A stretch of DNA of 36,198 nucleotides from a virus (IMGVR_UViG_2529292906_000018), one strand, 5' to 3'. Counted from the stretch's first letter, positions 1-36,198 are shown. The notes: generated from the letters alone by a model not told the origin. Numbers and translations are program-made.

Positions 1-56
1 GGTATCCGTTCTGCTGAAGTGTCATGGCGTTGATTTTACGGTGACTCTTCGACAGT

Positions 57-82
57 GAAAAGAAAAAAGGCCGCAGAGCGGC
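57..82 (-). terminator. putative rho-independent terminator downstream of the 190..585 gene
   Basis: GGCCGC-aga-GCGGCC hairpin at 68-82; on the minus strand it is followed by a T-rich tract (plus 57-67 gaaaagaaaaaa). Confidence 0.4.
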
Positions 83-189
83 CATAAACACAAACAAAAA
101 TCAATAAGTTAGATAATTATCAAAGACTTACAGACACACAAAAACACAGCCAACCACAACAAATAACAGGGATGTGGTCACTTTGTGGA

Positions 190-585
190 TCATTCGCTCC
201 CCTCTTTTTCCTTATTTCGTTGAACGCCAATTGCGACACACGTACTAAGCAAATCTTTACATTTCTCTACATCTTCAGACTTACGCAATTTGATGCTTTT
301 TACAGACTGCGGGCTACTGTCCGTAGCACGATACATCGTTATTTCAATATCATTTCGGTCTAAGAGTCCCATAATGGCTTTTGCAACCTCCACACCCTTC
401 TTCGCGAAATCAAAGAACAGAGCAAGTTTATATGGATTTTCGACGGAAAAAACTTCAATTTTGCTAAAACCAACATCGTGTAGAGAAAAATATTGCTCAA
501 CCTCATCTCGAAGTTCTGGATCGCATACAATGTCTATTCTCCAGTACTGACCTAAATGCAAATCGCTATTAACTGTTTTTTCCAC
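190..585 (-). CDS. hypothetical protein (131 aa), cargo gene between prophage end and int
   Basis: ORF 190..606; GTG at 585 preceded by AAGGAGG (592-598) is the best start; no recognisable motif; lower GC than phage core. Confidence 0.5.
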   Translation of the reverse strand: MEKTVNSDLHLGQYWRIDIVCDPELRDEVEQYFSLHDVGFSKIEVFSVENPYKLALFFDFAKKGVEVAKAIMGLLDRNDIEITMYRATDSSPQSVKSIKLRKSEDVEKCKDLLSTCVAIGVQRNKEKEGSE

Positions 586-595
586 AACATCCTCC

Positions 596-1570
596 TTACC
601 CAGCAATAGGATTAAATCTCACCGCATCCTGCAAGTAATCCGGCGCAAGATGGGCATAAATCATCGTTGTCTGAATCTTTGCGTGCCCCAGAATTTTCTG
701 GAGCGTCAGAATATTGCCGCCGTTCATCATGAAATGACTGGCGAAGGTGTGGCGCAGCGCATGAACAGCCTGGCCGTCAGGAACATCAGGTGCGACCGTT
801 TTGATGACATCGCGAACCAATGGATAATCCAGCGTCGGAAACACCAGTTTCCCGCCCCGTTTTTTGATCTTTTCAAACAGGCTTTCAGAAATAGGAACGG
901 TACGGTTTTTGCTGTTCTTCGTTTTTGAAAAAGTGATTCGACAATGAAGAACACGGCGCTGCTCCAGTGCCGCTACCTCGCCCCATCGCGCCCCGGTCGA
1001 CAGAAGGATTTCGACAGCCAGCCGTTCATCGGGATTTTCAGCCAGTGCATCCAGCAACTGAACACATTCAGACTTACTCAGATATCCCATTTCGCGCTCG
1101 TTAACCTTCATTCCTTTAAGGCCTTGAACGGGGTTATCGTTAAGAAAATGGCCGGATGAGATGAGTGCGGTAAACATCGCGCTTAACGCCCCAATCTCTC
1201 GATTAATGGTGCTGGGCTGTATCCCCTGCTCTATCCTGGACACACGTAGCTCGGTGAGCATCGTTGTATTAAGTTTATGCACACACGGGTCATCCATTGC
1301 CTCACTCAAGCGCAGCAATTTAAGGCGCGTGTTATGCCCTGACTTCATTAGCTGGCCGTGGTATTTCCACCACAAGTCAATAAGCACCGACAGCGGACGG
1401 CGATCAATGGAGTTTCCTTTCCACTCATTGTTATGCTGTTGCGCCAGCACCCACCGCTCATATAAAACTGCATCCGATTTCGTTTTAAATTTTTTGCGAA
1501 TGCGTTTGCCTTTACGCCCCTCAGGGCGCATGTCAAGAAGATACCCTCCCGGAATTGATTTTATGCTCAT
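596..1570 (-). CDS. int: tyrosine-type site-specific integrase (P2 Int-like)
   Basis: ORF 596..1720; C-terminus HALRHTFASHFMMNGGNILTLQKILGHAKIQTTMIYAHL is the tyrosine-recombinase catalytic signature; ATG at 1570 (MSIKSIPGGY) chosen as start. Confidence 0.9.
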   Translation of the reverse strand: MSIKSIPGGYLLDMRPEGRKGKRIRKKFKTKSDAVLYERWVLAQQHNNEWKGNSIDRRPLSVLIDLWWKYHGQLMKSGHNTRLKLLRLSEAMDDPCVHKLNTTMLTELRVSRIEQGIQPSTINREIGALSAMFTALISSGHFLNDNPVQGLKGMKVNEREMGYLSKSECVQLLDALAENPDERLAVEILLSTGARWGEVAALEQRRVLHCRITFSKTKNSKNRTVPISESLFEKIKKRGGKLVFPTLDYPLVRDVIKTVAPDVPDGQAVHALRHTFASHFMMNGGNILTLQKILGHAKIQTTMIYAHLAPDYLQDAVRFNPIAG

Positions 1571-30995: not shown

Positions 30996-31736
30996 ATGAC
31001 CGACACCACCATGCAATTGCTCAGTCAGGGCACAGACCCCGTGAAAATGCCGGATTTTGATATTCTCGCGGAGGGTAAAACGCTGTCAGGCATGGCAGAG
31101 CGCCTGATGAGCCTGTCACTGACCGACAACCGGGGATTTGAGGCGGACCAGCTCACCATCACGCTGGATGATGCGGATGGTCAGTTGCAGCTACCGCCAC
31201 GGGGCGCGCGCCTGACGGTTCTCATTGGCTGGAAAGGAGAACCGCTGACAGAAAAAGGCACTTACATTGTTGATGAAATTGCTCATGAAGGACCGCCCGA
31301 CAGACTGACCATTTCAGCCAGAAGCGCAGATTTTCGGGATGAATTTAACGTCAAGCGCGAAGTATCTTGGCATGATGTGACCGTTGAACGCGTGGTGTCT
31401 GCAATTGCTCACCGATACGGCCTGAAACCGCAAATCAGCGAAATGCTGATGGATATTGAAATCGACCACGCTGACCAGACCGAAGAAAGCGACATGTCCT
31501 TCCTTACGCGCATGGCGGAAATGCTGGGCGCAATCACCACGGTAAAAAGCGGCAATCTGTTATTCATCATGCCAGGTGGTGGCGTGAACGCACAGGGGCA
31601 GCCGTTGCCCTCGTTCGCCATTACACGCAGCAGCGGCGATCGCCATCAGTTCCGCATTGCTGACCGCGAGGCGTATACGGGGGTACGCGCCTACTGGCTT
31701 GATCTTAATTACGGGAAAAAGAAAAAGTCAGCGTGA
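30996..31736 (+). CDS. D: tail protein D (late control gene D family), N-terminal ORF
   Basis: ATG 30996 after GGGAGGG; gpD-family pattern (...SLTDNRGFEADQL...FLTRMAEMLGA...FRIADREAYTGVRAYW); ends inside a Lys-rich AAAAAGAAAAAG tract. Confidence 0.8.
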   Translation: MTDTTMQLLSQGTDPVKMPDFDILAEGKTLSGMAERLMSLSLTDNRGFEADQLTITLDDADGQLQLPPRGARLTVLIGWKGEPLTEKGTYIVDEIAHEGPPDRLTISARSADFRDEFNVKREVSWHDVTVERVVSAIAHRYGLKPQISEMLMDIEIDHADQTEESDMSFLTRMAEMLGAITTVKSGNLLFIMPGGGVNAQGQPLPSFAITRSSGDRHQFRIADREAYTGVRAYWLDLNYGKKKKSA

Positions 31737-32104
31737 AACGCCGCAAACCGCCAAAACCCAAAAAGGAGAAAAGCAGCAGTCGGGAAGGCGACTATATGGA
31801 AGGTGCGGAAGGCAACGTGTTTGTGTTACGCAAGACTTATCAGAACGAGCAGGCAGCAAGACGCGCAGCGGCGGCAAAGTGGCAGCAGCTACAACGCGGA
31901 GCCGCATCATTCTCCATCACGCTGGCGCGTGGTCGTGCAGAACTCTATCCCGAAATGCATGGCACAGTGACAGGCTTTAAAAGCGAGATTGATTATCAGG
32001 ACTGGATTATTGCAAAAGCCGAGCACACCATTGATAACAGCGGCTTTACCACGCAGCTTGAACTTGAAGCAAAAATCCCGGAATGGATAGCAGAAACAGA
32101 ATAA
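31733..32104 (+). CDS. D: tail protein D, C-terminal segment in -1 frame
   Basis: EGDYMEGAEGNV...AAAKWQQLQRGAASFSITLARGRAELYPE...GFKSEIDYQDW...SGFTTQLELE matches the gpD C-terminal domain as recalled; frame is open back to 31709; joins the N-terminal ORF if the A5 run at 31716-31720 or 31722-31726 is A6. Confidence 0.7.
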   Translation: MKRRKPPKPKKEKSSSREGDYMEGAEGNVFVLRKTYQNEQAARRAAAAKWQQLQRGAASFSITLARGRAELYPEMHGTVTGFKSEIDYQDWIIAKAEHTIDNSGFTTQLELEAKIPEWIAETE

Positions 32105-32352: not shown

Positions 32353-33300
32353 ATGATTGGACAATTTTTAAGTGCAACAGAGATTTTAGCAAAGAACTAT
32401 GTTCGTAATAAAATGGTTAAAAATCCATTTTATTCGAATTTAAAATGGAATTTTATTGAAAAAAACATCATAAGATTAACATCCTCACCGGTTAAATCAG
32501 TACTTTGCATATCAGCTTTTTCATTTGTACTACTTTATGTTGGATATTTAAACGAATTATTTATAAAAAATAATCTTTTACATTATTTCCCGTTTAGGCA
32601 TTCATTAACCGAATGGCAAACAACCATTTTAAGTGGCCAATTGACAATTATTGGTATTGTATACCCCCTTGTTATAGGTTTAGTAAGTGTCTTATTCCAA
32701 AAAAAGGCAGATAGAAAAATAGCCCAAACTGCTTATCAGCGTTACTCAGGATTCATGCTTGCTGGACTCAGCGGGCTTTTCTTATCAGGATTTATACTTC
32801 TCAGTGTACTAATTAAAACTGTCTTTGGAAGTTATCTTTATGGTATAGCTTGTCTAATCAGCATATTATGGCTTTTGATAAACATAGTTCTTTCTATTTG
32901 GTTCTTTATCGTGAGTCTTGAAATTCTTGATGATGTAAAACGGCAAATAATTATAAAGCGATACATTGCCTTCGAAATAGTAATGCCCCATATTTGTAAC
33001 AAAATCTCAGCCAAGCTTAGGTTATACCCTATCTATCAAAAACATAACTATTCAAATTTAGAAATCAAGCAAGCCGATTACAAAGGAGAATACATATCTG
33101 TGGCTAGCGGTTATTCTAAGGAAGATGAGTTAAGTTTATATCACCGTCCTTTTCAACTTACTCTTAATCTTATTAATTGCCAACTAAAAAGAAGAATCAT
33201 TTTGCGTCATTTGTCATTGGTGATAATCGTGCAAAAGAAACAGAATCCACGGGTAAGATACTTTTTAGCGTTAAAAATATCAAACCAGACAGCTTATTAA
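32353..33300 (+). CDS. hypothetical polytopic membrane protein (about 4 TM helices), AT-rich island gene 1
   Basis: 315 aa ORF; hydrophobic stretches VLCISAFSFVLLYVGYL, LTIIGIVYPLVIGLVSVLF, FMLAGLSGLFLSGFILLSVLI, LYGIACLISILWLLINIVLSIWFFIVSL; very AT-rich codon usage. Confidence 0.55.
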   Translation: MIGQFLSATEILAKNYVRNKMVKNPFYSNLKWNFIEKNIIRLTSSPVKSVLCISAFSFVLLYVGYLNELFIKNNLLHYFPFRHSLTEWQTTILSGQLTIIGIVYPLVIGLVSVLFQKKADRKIAQTAYQRYSGFMLAGLSGLFLSGFILLSVLIKTVFGSYLYGIACLISILWLLINIVLSIWFFIVSLEILDDVKRQIIIKRYIAFEIVMPHICNKISAKLRLYPIYQKHNYSNLEIKQADYKGEYISVASGYSKEDELSLYHRPFQLTLNLINCQLKRRIILRHLSLVIIVQKKQNPRVRYFLALKISNQTAY

Positions 33301-35471
33301 TAAAAATACTTAAGCAATGTTTTTATAGGGCTCCGATTAAAGGAGGAGATTTTTCCGTAAGTCTTACAATGCAGGCTATAACAGCAGATACGTATATGTA
33401 TCTGCGGGATTCTGATCTCATTAGTTTTGACGATGCTATCTCTGCATTAATTAATAACTTTAATAATCTCTGCGATTTGTATTTTTTTCAAGATGATAAT
33501 ACCAACAATAACTTCTTACTGATCACTACAGAATTATTTGAACGGAGTTTTCAATATGAGTTTTCAGATGAAGTTTATAAAATATCAAATAATTCCATGG
33601 ATAAAATTAATCTTTCTGAAAGATTTTTTGAATTATGTCTTTGGAGCGGAGTGCGTATTATCAATAATAGAAAACATCTTATCAGCAATGAACTTTGTAT
33701 CTATATGGGAATTACTCGTTCACAATGGTCAATATTAACAGAATGGTTCCGAAACAACCAATCACTCTTAAATGCCTCGCTTCGTTCACGTTATAATCGT
33801 ATATTAAGAACCTATACCACTGTTTGGGAGCAATATCAAGAAAGCATAAACTTTCGTTTCTGCAATACAGAGAATTCAGATTTATTTGAATTATTTTGCA
33901 AAACGCAACTACAAGAACTTCCATCGATGATTATTGATGCAACACAGACTCGCGATCCTTCTACTATTGATACAGCCGTCGATCTTATTAACCGATGGCA
34001 GCACTCAATGAATATTGACAGCCATTCGGTAGAAAAATACAGTTACAAAGGCCAGCTTTTTAACCCGGGTTTTTTCATATCCAAAAAACTAAACTTCAAT
34101 TCAGACAGAGAGTGGTTCAATATTGCCATCATAAATGCGTTGACTGACATGCGTATATGCACATGTCTTTATCTGACATCAAGAATCAATACTTCTGACA
34201 AACTAATGACACATTACATTAAACTTATTTTAGAGGGTAAACTTATTGACCAAACCGGTGGATATGAAACTCCCACTGAAGAAATTGATAATGCAAGCCA
34301 ACTAATCAAGATATTAATTAGAATCTGCCTGTGGACATGGTCTGAAAATATGGAGCATAATGGGTGGATGAATAGTTTAGCAAGGCGTTTACGTGACTAT
34401 GATAAAACAGACATGGTGATGGGCAGAGTTTACAGTAATGTTTTTGACTGTGGATTTATTGATATGGAACAATCATGGGTTCAGCTATTATTAATTTTTT
34501 CTAACAAGAACGATAGCGTATCAAAAGAAATAAAAGAAGCAATAGAAAACAACTATATAACATATCGTGAGAAGCAACGACTCATTGGAGTATTATCAAA
34601 AATTTGTAACTCCATCGAATACACTAAAATCAAGCTGACTTTAACATTGGACGATCTCCAAACAAAAAAAGAAAACTTAAGAAAGTTGCTTCAAGAGCAT
34701 ATTAACATGCTAAAGAAAGATCTTGATATGAGACTTCAGGATGCTGCCATAGATGTACATCGACTAGATAGCACTGCACGTAAAACATCAGAACATCTTC
34801 GTAAACGCATCAAGAAAACGCTCCCTCTTTCACTTTTCAAATCTATTGATTTTAAGCAGGCTAGCGATTGTTTCACAAAACATAAGATATCTATTAAGAT
34901 AGATAAAGAACCGTATGCCGAAGGAATAGAATCCATCCCTTATATCAATGAAGGTGATATTCAAGCAGACTTAATTCTCAAGGACATCCAGAGAATAATA
35001 CTTTCAAATTTATTTAGCACTGGCTGTTCGCAACATACCGTAATAGAAGATTTCAATATGTTGATTGATCACATAAAATCATCTGCTGACTTGGCTGGCA
35101 AACTGGTTCTTGTGATGAGTAAAGAGATCTTTCAGCAATATAATCGTATGCTTTTCGATAATCCCAACCTCAGAGAACTAATGAGAAAAAATGATGATGG
35201 CTCTATGAACATAACTACTGAATCCGGTACCTGTAAGGTTTACTTCTTACCATTTGTTAATCAACCATTTTCTCTTGTGGTAAAGGATAACTACTTCACT
35301 AAATTAATTATTAGAGAATATGATAATAATAAGTTAGTAAATGTCACTTCAGAGAATATCAAAAGTGACTCAGATAAATTCAAGCTAACTCTTAACTATG
35401 AGTTGAATATAGTATTTGAAGGAAACGCTGATTTAAAAATAGCTCACTCGCAAAGAGTGACATCAGAATAA
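33177..35471 (+). CDS. hypothetical large protein (about 760 aa), AT-rich island gene 2; probably continuous with gene 1
   Basis: Long ORF overlapping gene 1 by 124 nt in the -1 frame; listed start is TTG with no SD; reading the A5 run at 33186-33190 as A6 fuses the two into about 1040 aa; no recognisable catalytic motif. Confidence 0.55.
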   Translation: MPTKKKNHFASFVIGDNRAKETESTGKILFSVKNIKPDSLLIKILKQCFYRAPIKGGDFSVSLTMQAITADTYMYLRDSDLISFDDAISALINNFNNLCDLYFFQDDNTNNNFLLITTELFERSFQYEFSDEVYKISNNSMDKINLSERFFELCLWSGVRIINNRKHLISNELCIYMGITRSQWSILTEWFRNNQSLLNASLRSRYNRILRTYTTVWEQYQESINFRFCNTENSDLFELFCKTQLQELPSMIIDATQTRDPSTIDTAVDLINRWQHSMNIDSHSVEKYSYKGQLFNPGFFISKKLNFNSDREWFNIAIINALTDMRICTCLYLTSRINTSDKLMTHYIKLILEGKLIDQTGGYETPTEEIDNASQLIKILIRICLWTWSENMEHNGWMNSLARRLRDYDKTDMVMGRVYSNVFDCGFIDMEQSWVQLLLIFSNKNDSVSKEIKEAIENNYITYREKQRLIGVLSKICNSIEYTKIKLTLTLDDLQTKKENLRKLLQEHINMLKKDLDMRLQDAAIDVHRLDSTARKTSEHLRKRIKKTLPLSLFKSIDFKQASDCFTKHKISIKIDKEPYAEGIESIPYINEGDIQADLILKDIQRIILSNLFSTGCSQHTVIEDFNMLIDHIKSSADLAGKLVLVMSKEIFQQYNRMLFDNPNLRELMRKNDDGSMNITTESGTCKVYFLPFVNQPFSLVVKDNYFTKLIIREYDNNKLVNVTSENIKSDSDKFKLTLNYELNIVFEGNADLKIAHSQRVTSE

Positions 35472-35606: not shown

Positions 35607-35867
35607 ATGTTCCGTTGTCCGCTTTGTGGCGCATCTGCCCGTATCCGCACCAGTCGTCCGGAAAATGATTCAAACACCGTGAGACAAAAGTATTATCAGT
35701 GTAACAATCTAGAATGCGGCGTATGTTTCTCAACACTGGAAGCCTTCCACAAATTCACTTCAAAGCACGCCTCCCCCATTCACTCATCAGAGGGCATCCC
35801 GTGGCATGAACTGCCAACTTCACACAGAGGAAACAATCAGATGAGTTTGCCCTTACCTCAGAATTAA
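35607..35867 (+). CDS. ogr: late gene transcriptional activator Ogr (zinc-finger)
   Basis: MFRCPLCGASARIRTSR...YYQCNNLECGVCF matches P2 Ogr (MFHCPLCQHAAHARTSR...YHQCQNVNCSATF) as recalled, C-x2-C...C-x4-C; AGAGAGG SD. Confidence 0.85.
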   Translation: MFRCPLCGASARIRTSRPENDSNTVRQKYYQCNNLECGVCFSTLEAFHKFTSKHASPIHSSEGIPWHELPTSHRGNNQMSLPLPQN

Positions 35868-36057
35868 CGAGCAGAATTGCCGGAGTAACAAAAAAGCGAT
35901 AGATTACGCGCGGGTGCCTTTCGGCTGATGGTCGGAGGGAATACCTGAAGGCCAGATGTGGAAAGGCCCCGGAAAACATTTTTGTTTAACCGAGGCCCTA
36001 ACCGTCTACCCTAAGCAAGTGATAGGTTAGCGCCTCCCCGAAAAAGGAGCAAGCGCT

Positions 36058-36198
36058 ATGTCGCAAAAATCGCTTACGGCCATCACGTTCTGCGTGACGG
36101 CAATCCTCATCATCTGGATGCTGCACGGTTCGCTGTGCGAAATACGGATGAGCTTCTGGGGAGCGGAGTTTGCGGCGTTCTTACAGTGTAAGCAGTAA
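36058..36198 (+). CDS. Hok/Gef-family type I toxin-like small membrane peptide (46 aa)
   Basis: MSQKSLTAITFCVTAILIIWMLHGSLCEIR...AAFLQCKQ has the Hok-family hydrophobic helix plus SLCEIR and AAFL motifs; AAGGAG SD; complete with TAA at window end. Confidence 0.65.
   Translation: MSQKSLTAITFCVTAILIIWMLHGSLCEIRMSFWGAEFAAFLQCKQ

What the first reader, a model, noticed from the sequence alone, without database searches (positions are those of the whole stretch)
35880..36198. Hok/Gef-family toxin-like gene at the right edge, just beyond ogr
The 46-aa peptide has the Hok hydrophobic helix and the SLCEIR and AAFL motifs. Hok loci normally include an overlapping mok frame and an antisense Sok RNA in the 5' leader; the roughly 180-bp leader (35880-36057) is structured and GC-rich but I could not identify mok or sok confidently. 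It may mark the chromosomal flank beyond attR or be phage cargo contributing to lysogen stabilisation or defence.
Basis: partly seen in the sequence, partly recalled or inferred. Interest (0 to 1): 0.45.

Follow-up and report, generated by a model that had tools for sequence, protein, structure and literature searches.

The report
Phage-borne hok/sok-type toxin module
The last 320 bases of the window hold a real but already catalogued Hok-family membrane toxin gene with its regulatory RNA leader, carried as cargo by a common P2-like E. coli prophage; it is ordinary except that it has no conserved "mok" helper reading frame.

Summary
Window 36058-36198 (+) encodes a 46-aa peptide that passes Pfam HOK_GEF. 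The same peptide is RefSeq WP_000078916.1 and construct "72_1621" in a 2025-26 Hok survey, which by elimination reports it as toxic.

The gene is phage cargo, not chromosomal flank. The window is a P88-like (Xuanwuvirus) prophage between btuC and ihfA. Its attL core lies at 59-83. The attR core lies 262 nt past the window end. The ogr-hok unit occurs in 1158 of 5426 complete E. coli genomes.

The leader has hok-type anatomy: a promoter at 35877-35905, an inferred +1 at 35912, a 5' tac element and a sequestered ribosome-binding site. On the minus strand there is a Sok-like antisense unit (about 36016 to 35962), with conserved promoter hexamers and a hairpin. The window stops at the hok stop codon, so the fbi element and terminator are missing; I recovered them from an identical genome. 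The 5'-3' closing helix shows covariation across 38 alleles.

No conserved mok exists. This allele has only a non-conserved 24-codon upstream ORF. Sok expression and the biological role (defence, addiction or lysis aid) remain inferred. Novelty is low.

The parts
35877..35882 (+). hok promoter -35 hexamer TTGCCG, 10 nt after the ogr stop codon
   Evidence: Sequence. There is a 17-nt spacer to the -10. TTGCC is kept in P2-like and Stx-phage copies, and TTGAAA in another lineage. Only 8 of 12 positions match consensus, so the simple scan did not list it.
35900..35905 (+). hok promoter -10 hexamer TAGATT (TANNNT)
   Evidence: TAGATT or TAGAAT is conserved, and TAAATT occurs in the VT2-Sakai copy, in 17 of 18 diverse homologues 6 nt upstream of the invariant GGGTGCC. 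The register relative to the conserved 5' end is about the same as the -10 box TATGAT of the R1-type locus (PMC9841398).
35912..35920 (+). Inferred mRNA 5' end and tac element GGGTGCCTT
   Evidence: Invariant in 38 alleles. It is the start of the Rfam RF01794 match. It pairs with the fbi element AAGGCACCC, which lies 57-65 nt beyond the window end (L001 6388-6396), in the MFE and consensus folds. All fbi variants are wobble-compatible and the extended helix has 4 pairs with double changes.
35956..36030 (+). 24-codon upstream ORF (ATG at mRNA nt 45) in the hok frame, ending in TAG 27 nt before the hok ATG; a possible but unproven stand-in for mok
   Evidence: It is not conserved. Among 38 alleles it ends at -27, -42, -57 or -78, or runs into hok in the mok frame. 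It is absent from Salmonella and Klebsiella copies.
35961..35970 (+). GAAAGGCCCC, local pairing partner of tac (metastable / ucb-like element)
   Evidence: In folds of the nascent 70-nt and 150-nt RNAs, and of the RNA lacking fbi, tac pairs here and the lower stem of the Sok-target hairpin opens. This is prediction only.
35965..35997 (+). Sok-target hairpin (GGCCCCGG...CCGAGGCC); its complement is the body and terminator hairpin of the Sok-like RNA
   Evidence: Base of the stem is invariant. Two upper-stem alleles (AAAACATTTTTGTTT and AGTCAACTTTAACGTTAAC) both fold as extended hairpins (helix 4, 74). It corresponds to the hairpin in the Rfam model.
35998..36016 (+). Target of the single-stranded 5' tail of the Sok-like RNA; the most variable stretch of the leader
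   Evidence: Mean column entropy is 0.81 at mRNA nt 91-100, against 0.07-0.2 for neighbouring elements. In the full-length fold it pairs with the 3' UTR (L001 6364-6379, outside the window), with 5 pairs changed on both sides (helix 5).
35962..36016 (-). Predicted Sok-like antisense RNA, about 55 nt (19-nt tail, hairpin, then UUU); ends are approximate
   Evidence: Positional homology to Sok in an R1-type locus. The antisense hexamers are conserved, followed by a conserved 'cttG'. It folds at -20.6 kcal/mol. No transcript data exist. The U-tract is weak and was not listed by the terminator scan.
36024..36029 (-). sok promoter -10, TAACCT on the minus strand
   Evidence: TAACCT in 36 of 38 alleles and TATCCT in 2. 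TATCCT is the hexamer at the same place in the R1-type locus.
36047..36052 (-). sok promoter -35, TTGCTC on the minus strand, overlapping the hok Shine-Dalgarno
   Evidence: TTGCTC in 35 of 38 alleles, with a 17-nt spacer. The consensus scan misses it, but the same scan also misses the established Sok promoter of the R1-type locus, so that negative carries no weight.
36030..36057 (+). Anti-SD arm GCGCCTCC (36030-36037) and hok Shine-Dalgarno GGAG (36046-36049) in one hairpin
   Evidence: Predicted probability that the SD is unpaired is 0.02-0.03 in the full-length and truncated RNAs. Helices 6 and 7 are 97-100% paired across alleles.
36058..36198 (+). hok-family toxin gene, 46 codons plus TAA
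   Evidence: Median dN/dS is 0.17. The peptide is identical to WP_000078916.1 and to construct 72_1621 of bioRxiv 10.1101/2025.08.07.668861.
36166..36178 (+). GAGTTTGCGGCGT inside the hok coding region; pairs with the hok start region (AUGUCGCAAA)
   Evidence: In a 30-nt stretch (mRNA nt 251-280) mean column entropy is 0.00-0.09, including synonymous sites. Helix 8 is 98.8% paired.
59..83 (.). attL core AAAGAAAAAAGGCCGCAGAGCGGCC (the ihfA terminator); shown because it fixes the prophage boundary
   Evidence: It is the 25-nt longest shared stretch between window 1-200 and the DNA downstream of hok in the identical genome (L001 6593-6617, equivalent to window 36460-36484). K-12 has one copy and no prophage.
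35607..35867 (+). ogr (late-gene activator), the conserved upstream neighbour
   Evidence: Pfam Ogr_Delta, 52.3 bits. The ogr-hok unit is covered at 80% or more in 1158 of 5426 complete E. coli genomes.

Best explanation
The region is a hok/sok-type type I toxin-antitoxin module carried as cargo (a moron) between ogr and the attachment site of a P88-like (Xuanwuvirus) P2-family prophage of E. coli.

Shown:
- A 46-aa Hok-family peptide gene.
- A conserved sigma-70-like promoter just upstream of an invariant 5' end.
- A highly structured mRNA of about 400 nt. Its 5' end (tac) pairs with a 3' element (fbi) that lies outside the window. Its ribosome-binding site is buried in a hairpin.
- A location inside the prophage att boundaries.

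Inferred by homology with the R1 hok/sok paradigm:
- The full-length mRNA is an inert, stable pool.
- Slow 3' trimming removes fbi. tac then re-pairs locally with GAAAGGCCCC, which opens the Sok-target hairpin.
- A short unstable antisense RNA of about 55 nt is made from a conserved promoter on the minus strand (-35 at 36052-36047, -10 at 36029-36024). It binds the opened target and leads to RNase III decay.
- When transcription of the locus stops, the antisense RNA decays first. Hok is then made and collapses the inner membrane. Transcription could stop through loss of the prophage or through host shut-off by an infecting lytic phage.

Unlike R1, this locus has no conserved mok frame. Hok translation must therefore be opened in some other way. 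In this allele that could be the 24-codon upstream ORF, which terminates next to the anti-SD arm.

The role I think most likely is killing of cells whose transcription is shut off, that is abortive infection and/or prophage addiction. This role is inferred, not shown.
For: Toxin identity:
- Pfam HOK_GEF is above the gathering score and PHROG 251 is strong.
- The peptide is 43% identical to K-12 HokA by BLASTP (41% in the alignment), and the family-conserved residues align.
- The identical peptide was cloned for toxicity assays, and the only 3 non-toxic constructs of 45 were others.
- dN/dS is 0.17.

mRNA architecture:
- Rfam hok-leader match with E 5e-9.
- MFE -160.7 kcal/mol, z = -7.
- On 38 distinct alleles, 93.6% of cells are paired against about 40% when partners are slid. 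22 pairs changed on both sides, and no shuffle of 500 reached that.
- The 15-bp 5'-3' closing helix is 95.9% paired, with 4 doubly changed pairs.
- Refolding on 3' truncation is predicted.

Antisense unit:
- Invariant minus-strand hexamers at R1-equivalent positions flank the most variable stretch of the leader.

Cargo status:
- The att cores and the K-12 empty site.
- ogr-hok in 1158 of 5426 genomes at different loci.
- Presence in the phage genomes P88, P884B11, 500465-2, Chuche and PhiR44_2.

Precedents for function:
- R1 hok/sok reduces T4 plating, and hokW-sokW acts in a prophage (PMC8621323).
- hok is enriched fourfold in prophages (bioRxiv 10.1101/2025.08.07.668861).
Against: - No transcript data exist for the Sok-like RNA. 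Its hexamers match consensus poorly (6 of 12) and its U-tract is short.
- The Rfam score is below gathering. The NCBIfam HokA and Hok-subfamily cut-offs are not reached.
- There is no mok. In R1, loss of mok translation abolishes Hok synthesis (PMC9841398), so the way Hok is translated here is unknown.
- The predicted truncated RNA still buries the hok SD.
- The Hok survey found no enrichment of hok near defence systems (section title only; discussion).
- No PADLOC model matches the peptide.
- Chromosomal hok loci of K-12 were reported inactive for post-segregational killing (cited in the same preprint).
- The fbi element, 3' UTR and terminator were read from an identical genome, not from the window.
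Confidence: 0.8

Rival explanations
1. The locus is a translationally silent or decaying hok copy. With no mok start codon, Hok cannot be made, as in the inactive chromosomal hok loci of E. coli K-12. The locus would then be only a hitch-hiking remnant.
For: No ATG, GTG or TTG occurs in the mok frame upstream of hok in this allele, and none is conserved in the clade. Mutations of the mok start codon in R1 abolish Hok toxicity (PMC9841398). The hok SD stays paired in all predicted conformers. Rare variants have frameshifted or extended C-termini.
Against: The 46-codon ORF is intact and nearly identical in about 1740 complete E. coli genomes. dN/dS is 0.17 across E. coli, Salmonella and Klebsiella copies. 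The promoter, tac/fbi and SD hairpin are conserved with compensatory changes. The peptide itself is reported toxic. Conservation of an elaborate repression apparatus makes little sense if nothing can be translated.
Confidence: 0.1
2. The module mainly serves the phage's own lytic cycle. As with hokW-sokW of the Stx2 phage Sp5, prophage induction depletes the antisense RNA, and Hok damages the membrane and aids or accelerates release of progeny. On this view it is not a defence or addiction module.
For: hokW-sokW in Sp5 doubled phage release after mitomycin C and required RecA (PMC8621323). The homologue of the present locus sits in the same Stx phages next to lom. The locus lies directly downstream of the late activator ogr.
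Against: The characterised hokW is a different paralogue: 30% identical, and at a different place in Sp5. The locus has its own promoter and terminator and shows no sign of late-promoter control. Nothing here tests induction.
Confidence: 0.15
3. The hok gene belongs to the bacterial chromosome flanking attR rather than to the phage.
For: The gene lies at the extreme edge of the window, beyond the last recognisable phage gene.
Against: The attR core lies 262 nt downstream of the hok stop, after the hok terminator. The K-12 ihfA-btuC spacer has neither hok nor prophage. ogr-hok occurs at many different chromosomal positions and in sequenced phage genomes.
Confidence: 0.01

Closest known systems
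hok/sok (parB) of plasmid R1, the type I toxin-antitoxin paradigm
   Same: Both have a small Hok-family membrane toxin and a promoter -10 box in about the same register to a G-rich 5' end. Both have 5' tac / 3' fbi closure of the mRNA, a buried ribosome-binding site, and a local alternative partner for tac. The antisense promoter hexamers (TTGC.. - 17 nt - TA.CCT), tail, hairpin and U-rich end lie at equivalent positions.
   Different: The toxin is only 30% identical. The leader is about 22 nt shorter here than in the R1-type locus compared (146 against 168 nt). There is no mok ORF starting in the Sok target: CCCTAACC stands where the R1-type locus has CCATATG. The sok -35 overlaps the hok SD. 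The Sok terminator U-tract is weaker. The carrier is a prophage, not a plasmid.
hokA-sokA of the E. coli chromosome
   Same: It is the closest named Hok: 43% identity by BLASTP, and the best NCBIfam match is the HokA equivalog. It shares the W-M...SLCE...AAFL.CK pattern and both cysteines are hard-coded.
   Different: The score is far below the HokA equivalog cut-off (34 against 89 bits). The peptide is 46 aa, not 50. K-12 hokA is annotated with a mokA frame, is disrupted by IS150 and sits at a fixed chromosomal site.
hokW-sokW of Stx2 prophage Sp5 (Takada et al. 2021, PMC8621323)
   Same: It is a prophage-borne hok/sok module. PHROG 251, which the present peptide matches, is labelled 'MokW-like host killing', and RefSeq phage records name the gene that way.
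   Different: It is a different paralogue: HokW is 51 aa (MKQQKAM...) and 30% identical. It lies at 57778-57827 of VT2-Sakai, whereas the homologue of the present locus lies next to lom at 44532-44906 and is, as far as I found, uncharacterised.
Hok cluster 72 of Escalera-Maurer et al. (bioRxiv 10.1101/2025.08.07.668861); RefSeq WP_000078916.1; gp52 of phage P88
   Same: The peptide is identical to 72_1621 and to WP_000078916.1. The P88 copy differs by one residue, and its locus DNA is 95% identical. That study reports toxicity of representative Hok peptides and enrichment of hok in prophages.
   Different: That study deliberately analysed only the coding sequence. Sok, mok and mRNA structure were not analysed, and the link to ogr and attR in P2-like phages is not mentioned.

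Membership tests
Hok/Gef toxin family (Pfam PF01848) | Score at or above the Pfam gathering threshold | tested here: met
   29.9 bits against 22, E 4.1e-7, covering residues 7-44 and profile positions 5-42 of 42.
Hok/Gef toxin family (Pfam PF01848) | Peptide of about 50 aa with an N-terminal hydrophobic helix and the residues conserved in more than 80% of Hok peptides (M1, C16, T18, L30, C31, E32, E41 of the logo in bioRxiv 10.1101/2025.08.07.668861) | tested here: met
   M1, C12, T14, L26, C27, E28 and E37 align with those residues of Hok R1, HokA and HokW. A second cysteine (C44) is present, as in HokA.
Hok/Gef toxin family (Pfam PF01848) | Toxic to E. coli when expressed | not testable with these tools
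   Literature only. The identical peptide (72_1621) is in the set of 45 tested, and the three non-toxic ones are named and are others.
HokA equivalog (NCBIfam NF007290) and Hok subfamily (NF007279) | Score at or above the curated cut-off | tested here: not met
   34 bits against 89, and 21.6 bits against 73. It is therefore a separate clade of the family, not HokA.
[quoted passage not shown] | Long-range 5' tac / 3' fbi pairing that closes the full-length mRNA | tested here: met
   GGGTGCCTT (35912-35920) pairs with AAGGCACCC (L001 6388-6396, outside the window). The pairing appears in the MFE and consensus folds. The helix has 15 bp, is 95.9% paired, shows wobble-only variants of fbi and has 4 doubly changed pairs.
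[quoted passage not shown] | cis-encoded antisense RNA (Sok) with its own promoter inside the leader | tested here: inconclusive
   Conserved TTGCTC - 17 nt - TAACCT lies on the minus strand at the R1-equivalent place, followed by a variable tail and a conserved hairpin. No expression data exist. The consensus scan is negative, but it is also negative for the real R1-type Sok promoter.
[quoted passage not shown] | mok reading frame that starts in the Sok-target region and overlaps hok | tested here: not met
   The mok frame is open from -43 to +131 but has no ATG, GTG or TTG. No upstream ORF is conserved across 38 alleles, and Salmonella and Klebsiella copies have none.
[quoted passage not shown] | Sequestered translation-initiation region, with refolding after 3' processing | tested here: inconclusive
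   The SD is predicted 2-3% unpaired. Removing fbi makes tac pair locally and opens the Sok-target hairpin, but the hok SD stays paired. All of this is in silico.
[quoted passage not shown] | Rfam RF01794 gathering score | tested here: not met
   46 bits against 59, although E is 5e-9 and the full model length is matched.
hokW-sokW of Sp5 | Orthology to the characterised locus | tested here: not met
   The characterised locus maps elsewhere in VT2-Sakai and 933W, and its toxin is 30% identical.
Cargo (moron) of a P2-family prophage | Located inside the att boundaries, and linked to phage genes independently of the integration site | tested here: met
   The attL core is at 59-83 and the attR core lies after the hok terminator. 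K-12 is the empty site. ogr-hok is linked in 1158 genomes and in phage genomes.

The most novel reading that the evidence does not exclude
This Hok clade (46 aa; cluster 72) may be a mok-independent variant of hok/sok. On this reading the antisense RNA controls the toxin without a coupled leader ORF. Control could work through RNase III decay and structural masking, or through short allele-specific upstream ORFs. The antisense recognition tail and its 3' UTR masking partner would co-diversify so that up to nine co-resident copies do not cross-talk. The module would be the fixed anti-phage or addiction device at the attR end of a P2-like phage lineage found in about a fifth of complete E. coli genomes.
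Probability: 0.3. Interest if true: 0.4.

Novelty: already known. Interest (0 to 1): 0.2.

Why it matters
It matters little for discovery. The gene is routinely annotated, the identical peptide has been catalogued and assayed, and hok enrichment in prophages has been reported. Three smaller points have value. First, the annotation can be sharpened: the locus is phage cargo, the window cuts it at the stop codon, and the label 'MokW-like' is a family label, not orthology to the studied hokW. Second, this widespread clade offers a natural test of whether mok is dispensable for hok/sok regulation. Third, a module present in about 21% of complete E. coli genomes at a fixed place in P2-like prophages is a convenient system for asking what prophage-borne type I toxins do.

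Tried and rejected
- I tested the chromosomal-flank reading against the K-12 empty site and the att repeats, and rejected it.
- I tested orthology to the published hokW-sokW and rejected it. The primer-derived sequence maps to another place in Sp5.
- I searched all three frames upstream of hok in 12 and then 38 homologues for a conserved mok, and found none.
- The consensus promoter scan found neither the hok nor the sok promoter in this locus. A control on an R1-type locus also missed the established Sok promoter and terminators, so I gave that negative no weight.
With an alignment, genome contigs gave only 7 loci, and viral contigs gave 80 loci with identical peptides. Diversity came from the look-up of encoding contigs instead.
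- PADLOC and Pfam gave nothing for the neighbouring AT-rich cargo gene.
- Literature searches for hok together with P2-like phages found nothing specific.
- I did not attempt structure prediction of a 46-aa membrane peptide, because it would not discriminate between the explanations.

Full report
**What is at the coordinates**

The + strand of the window carries an ATG-to-TAA ORF at 36058-36198. It encodes MSQKSLTAITFCVTAILIIWMLHGSLCEIRMSFWGAEFAAFLQCKQ, 46 aa.
- It passes the Pfam HOK_GEF gathering score: 29.9 against 22 bits, E 4.1e-7.
- It matches PHROG 251 strongly, at 80.6 bits.
- Its best NCBIfam match is the HokA equivalog, but far below that cut-off (34 against 89 bits). It is also below the Hok-subfamily cut-off.
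- It is 43% identical to K-12 HokA by BLASTP (41% in the multiple alignment), and 30% identical to both Hok of an R1-type plasmid and the published HokW.
- The seven positions reported as conserved in more than 80% of Hok peptides are all present, as M1, C12, T14, L26, C27, E28 and E37.

The upstream ORF at 35607-35867 is ogr.

**Where the window comes from, and whether hok is flank or cargo**

The last 331 bases are 100% identical to five complete E. coli chromosomes. Related copies exist in 1750 of 5426 complete genomes.

In strain VG38-53E1 the gene order is tail sheath, a partial gpD-like gene, a large orphan gene, ogr, hok, then ihfA-pheT-pheS. The other end of the element abuts btuC. In K-12 MG1655, ihfA and btuC are adjacent, with a 100-bp spacer.

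A 25-nt core, AAAGAAAAAAGGCCGCAGAGCGGCC, is the ihfA terminator. It occurs at window 59-83 and again 262 nt beyond the window end (L001 6593-6617). K-12 has it once. The hok gene and its terminator lie between ogr and this attR core, so hok is inside the prophage.

Three independent results agree.
- The ogr-hok unit is covered at 80% or more in 1158 of 5426 genomes, at many chromosomal positions.
- The locus is present at 95-99% identity in sequenced phages: P88, P884B11 and 500465-2 (genus Xuanwuvirus, family Peduoviridae), plus Chuche and PhiR44_2.
- A 61%-identical Hok sits in the same gpU-gpD-ogr-hok-ihfA arrangement in Salmonella.

Many IMG/VR prophage records end at exactly the hok stop codon. 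This explains why the window stops there: the cut is a gene-boundary artefact, and it removes the 3' UTR of the locus.

**Anatomy of the locus**

I read the missing 3' part from L001, which is identical over the last 331 bases of the window. Window coordinate equals L001 coordinate plus 29867.

Elements inside the window:

| Element | Sequence | Window position |
|---|---|---|
| hok -35 | TTGCCG | 35877-35882 |
| hok -10 | TAGATT | 35900-35905 |
| Inferred +1 and tac | GGGTGCCTT | 35912-35920 |
| Local tac partner | GAAAGGCCCC | 35961-35970 |
| Sok-target hairpin | GGCCCCGG...CCGAGGCC | 35965-35997 |
| Target of the Sok 5' tail | CTAACCGTCTACCCTAAGC | 35998-36016 |
| Anti-SD arm | GCGCCTCC | 36030-36037 |
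| hok SD | GGAG | 36046-36049 |
| hok | 46 codons plus TAA | 36058-36198 |

Elements beyond the window end, in equivalent coordinates:

| Element | Position |
|---|---|
| 3' UTR hairpin | 36207-36229 |
| Partner of the Sok-target region | 36231-36246 |
| fbi, AAGGCACCC | 36255-36263 |
| Intrinsic terminator | 36288-36319 |

The terminator was detected. A -10 box of the form TA.A.T (TAGATT, TAGAAT or TAAATT) lies 6 nt upstream of the invariant GGGTGCC in 17 of 18 diverse homologues. This is about the same register to the 5' end as the -10 box TATGAT of the R1-type locus (PMC9841398).

The Rfam family named 'sok' (RF01794) ends in the hok AUG, so it models the sense-strand leader. It aligns over its whole length to 35912-36071 at 46 bits and E 5e-9, below the gathering score of 59.

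**RNA structure evidence**

I collected 38 distinct alleles from E. coli prophages, Stx phages, E. albertii, Salmonella (including tandem triplets) and Klebsiella oxytoca.
- The full-length RNA of this allele folds at -160.7 kcal/mol, with z = -7.0 against shuffles. The 5' end is paired to fbi.
- The consensus fold recovers the same closure.
- Counting the single-sequence MFE structure on the alignment gives 93.6% of cells paired, against 37-46% when partners are slid. It gives 22 pairs with changes on both sides, against 13.2 +/- 2.1 in shuffles, and 0 of 500 shuffles reached that.
- The closing helix (15 bp) is 95.9% paired. All fbi variants are wobble-compatible and four pairs are doubly changed.

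One caveat applies: the structure was derived from one member of the alignment, which inflates the paired percentage. The double changes are less affected.

A 30-nt stretch of the coding region (mRNA nt 251-280) is nearly invariant, including its synonymous sites, with column entropy 0.00-0.09. It pairs with the hok start region.

When fbi is removed in silico, tac pairs with GAAAGGCCCC and the lower stem of the Sok-target hairpin opens. The same local hairpin forms in the nascent 70-nt RNA. This mirrors the metastable and tac/ucb logic described for R1 (PMC9841398), but here it is prediction only.

**The antisense unit**

On the minus strand, TTGCTC (36052-36047) is followed by 17 nt and then TAACCT (36029-36024).
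- TTGCTC is present in 35 of 38 alleles.
- TAACCT is present in 36 of 38. The other two carry TATCCT, which is the hexamer at the same position in the R1-type locus.
- About 7 nt downstream, a conserved 'cttG' is followed by a 19-nt stretch that is the most variable part of the leader (entropy 0.81). The conserved hairpin and a short U-run follow.

The predicted RNA of about 55 nt (36016 to 35962) folds into a free tail plus a hairpin, at -20.6 kcal/mol.

The variable tail target pairs in the full-length mRNA with an equally variable 3' UTR segment (entropy 0.83). Five pairs there changed on both sides (helix 5). The variability is therefore compensated, not simply neutral.

All of this fits a functional Sok, but no transcript was observed. 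The simple promoter and terminator scan did not list these sites. The same scan misses the established Sok promoter and terminators of an R1-type locus, so that negative is uninformative.

**mok**

In R1, mok starts inside the Sok target, and its translation up to the hok SD is required for Hok synthesis (PMC9841398). Here the frame equivalent to mok is open from -43 to +131 but contains no ATG, GTG or TTG.

This allele has a 24-codon ORF at 35956-36030. It is in the hok frame and stops 27 nt before the hok ATG. Its start would lie at the 3' edge of the Sok duplex, and its stop abuts the anti-SD arm. It could in principle substitute for mok.

That ORF is not conserved, however. Among the 38 alleles it ends at -27, -42, -57 or -78, or runs over hok in the mok frame. 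The seven Salmonella and Klebsiella alleles have no such ATG-initiated upstream ORF at all.

A conserved mok is therefore absent from this clade. The peptide is nevertheless under purifying selection: median dN/dS is 0.17 over 481 pairs. This argues that it is translated in nature.

**What is already known**
- RefSeq names the product 'Hok/Gef family protein' (WP_000078916.1). The P88 record notes 'hok/gef family protein'.
- A 2025-26 preprint surveyed Hok diversity (bioRxiv 10.1101/2025.08.07.668861). Its construct table lists this exact peptide as 72_1621 and the Stx-phage variant as 72_1589. It reports that 42 of 45 tested homologues were toxic and names the three that were not; none of the three is from cluster 72.
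- The same study reports fourfold enrichment of hok in prophages, and Hok in 9.3% of Escherichia phages in IMG/VR. It found no enrichment near defence systems. It states that Sok, mok and mRNA structure were not analysed.
- The experimentally studied prophage system hokW-sokW (PMC8621323) is a different paralogue. Its sequence maps to 57778-57827 of VT2-Sakai. The homologue of the present locus lies next to lom at 44532-44906.

**Mechanism and role**

The best-supported reading is a hok/sok-type type I toxin-antitoxin module, expressed from its own promoter in the lysogen.
- Shown: the toxin gene, the promoter conservation, the closed mRNA architecture and the cargo status.
- Inferred by homology: the antisense RNA, 3' processing, RNase III decay, and activation when transcription ceases.

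For the biological role I favour killing on transcription shut-off, meaning abortive infection against lytic phages and/or prophage addiction. The alternative is a lysis-aid role like that of hokW-sokW. None of these roles was tested here.

**Verdict**

The feature is real, correctly identified, and ordinary. The only mildly unusual aspects are the lack of a conserved mok and the co-varying hypervariable recognition region.

Noticed in passing
window 32353-35471: An AT-rich (33-35% GC) cargo gene lies between the gpD-like gene and ogr. In the otherwise near-identical genome it is one 1039-aa CDS, named 'MFS transporter' by PGAP, yet it has no Pfam or PADLOC match. In the window it is split into 315-aa and 764-aa ORFs by a 1-nt shorter A-run (AAAAAAG becomes AAAAAG), just upstream of 33186-33195 where the reading frame switches.
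   Followed up: partly
window 30996-32101: The gpD (tail) homologue aligns to P88 gpD in two different frames with an overlap (residues 1-293 in frame 3, residues 242-366 in frame 2). PGAP calls only a 266-aa partial product in the sister genome. The prophage may be defective.
   Followed up: partly
window 1-83: The first 58 bases are host DNA upstream of btuC, followed by the attL core (59-83). The window therefore contains attL but not attR.
   Followed up: yes
L007 (VT2-Sakai AP000363.1) 1501-1875, and AP000363.1 57778-57827: Stx2 phages such as Sp5/VT2-Sakai and 933W carry two hok-type loci. One is the published hokW-sokW. The other is a 46-aa one next to lom, unannotated in the original record, which is 81-82% identical in DNA to the present locus.
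   Followed up: partly
L101 3001-4487; L102 3001-4143; L103 3001-5585: Salmonella enterica contigs carry three tandem copies of this hok locus, with different variable tails. In L103 the array is interrupted by an IS transposase gene that truncates the leader of the last copy.
   Followed up: no
window 35998-36016 and L001 6364-6379: The two most variable 10-nt blocks of the whole mRNA (entropy 0.81 and 0.83) pair with each other in the full-length fold and show compensatory changes. This suggests allele-specific recognition codes for the antisense RNA.
   Followed up: partly
L019, L021, L025 and about 45 other IMG/VR loci: More than half of the 80 retrieved IMG/VR records end exactly at the hok stop codon, as this window does. 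Prophage boundary calling by gene ends therefore systematically removes the 3' UTR (fbi, terminator) of this locus and the attR site.
   Followed up: yes
window 190-606 (-) and neighbouring ORFs left of the integrase gene (596-1720): Small hypothetical ORFs lie between the integrase gene and attL; two are annotated as hypothetical proteins in the sister genome. They form a second possible cargo slot at the other prophage end.
   Followed up: no
L095 3001-3141: In Klebsiella oxytoca the homologous hok lies next to a PhdYeFM antitoxin / Fic pair, just before ppiD-hupB-lon. A GGCCGC...GCGGCC terminator-like core follows, as at the ihfA site.
   Followed up: no
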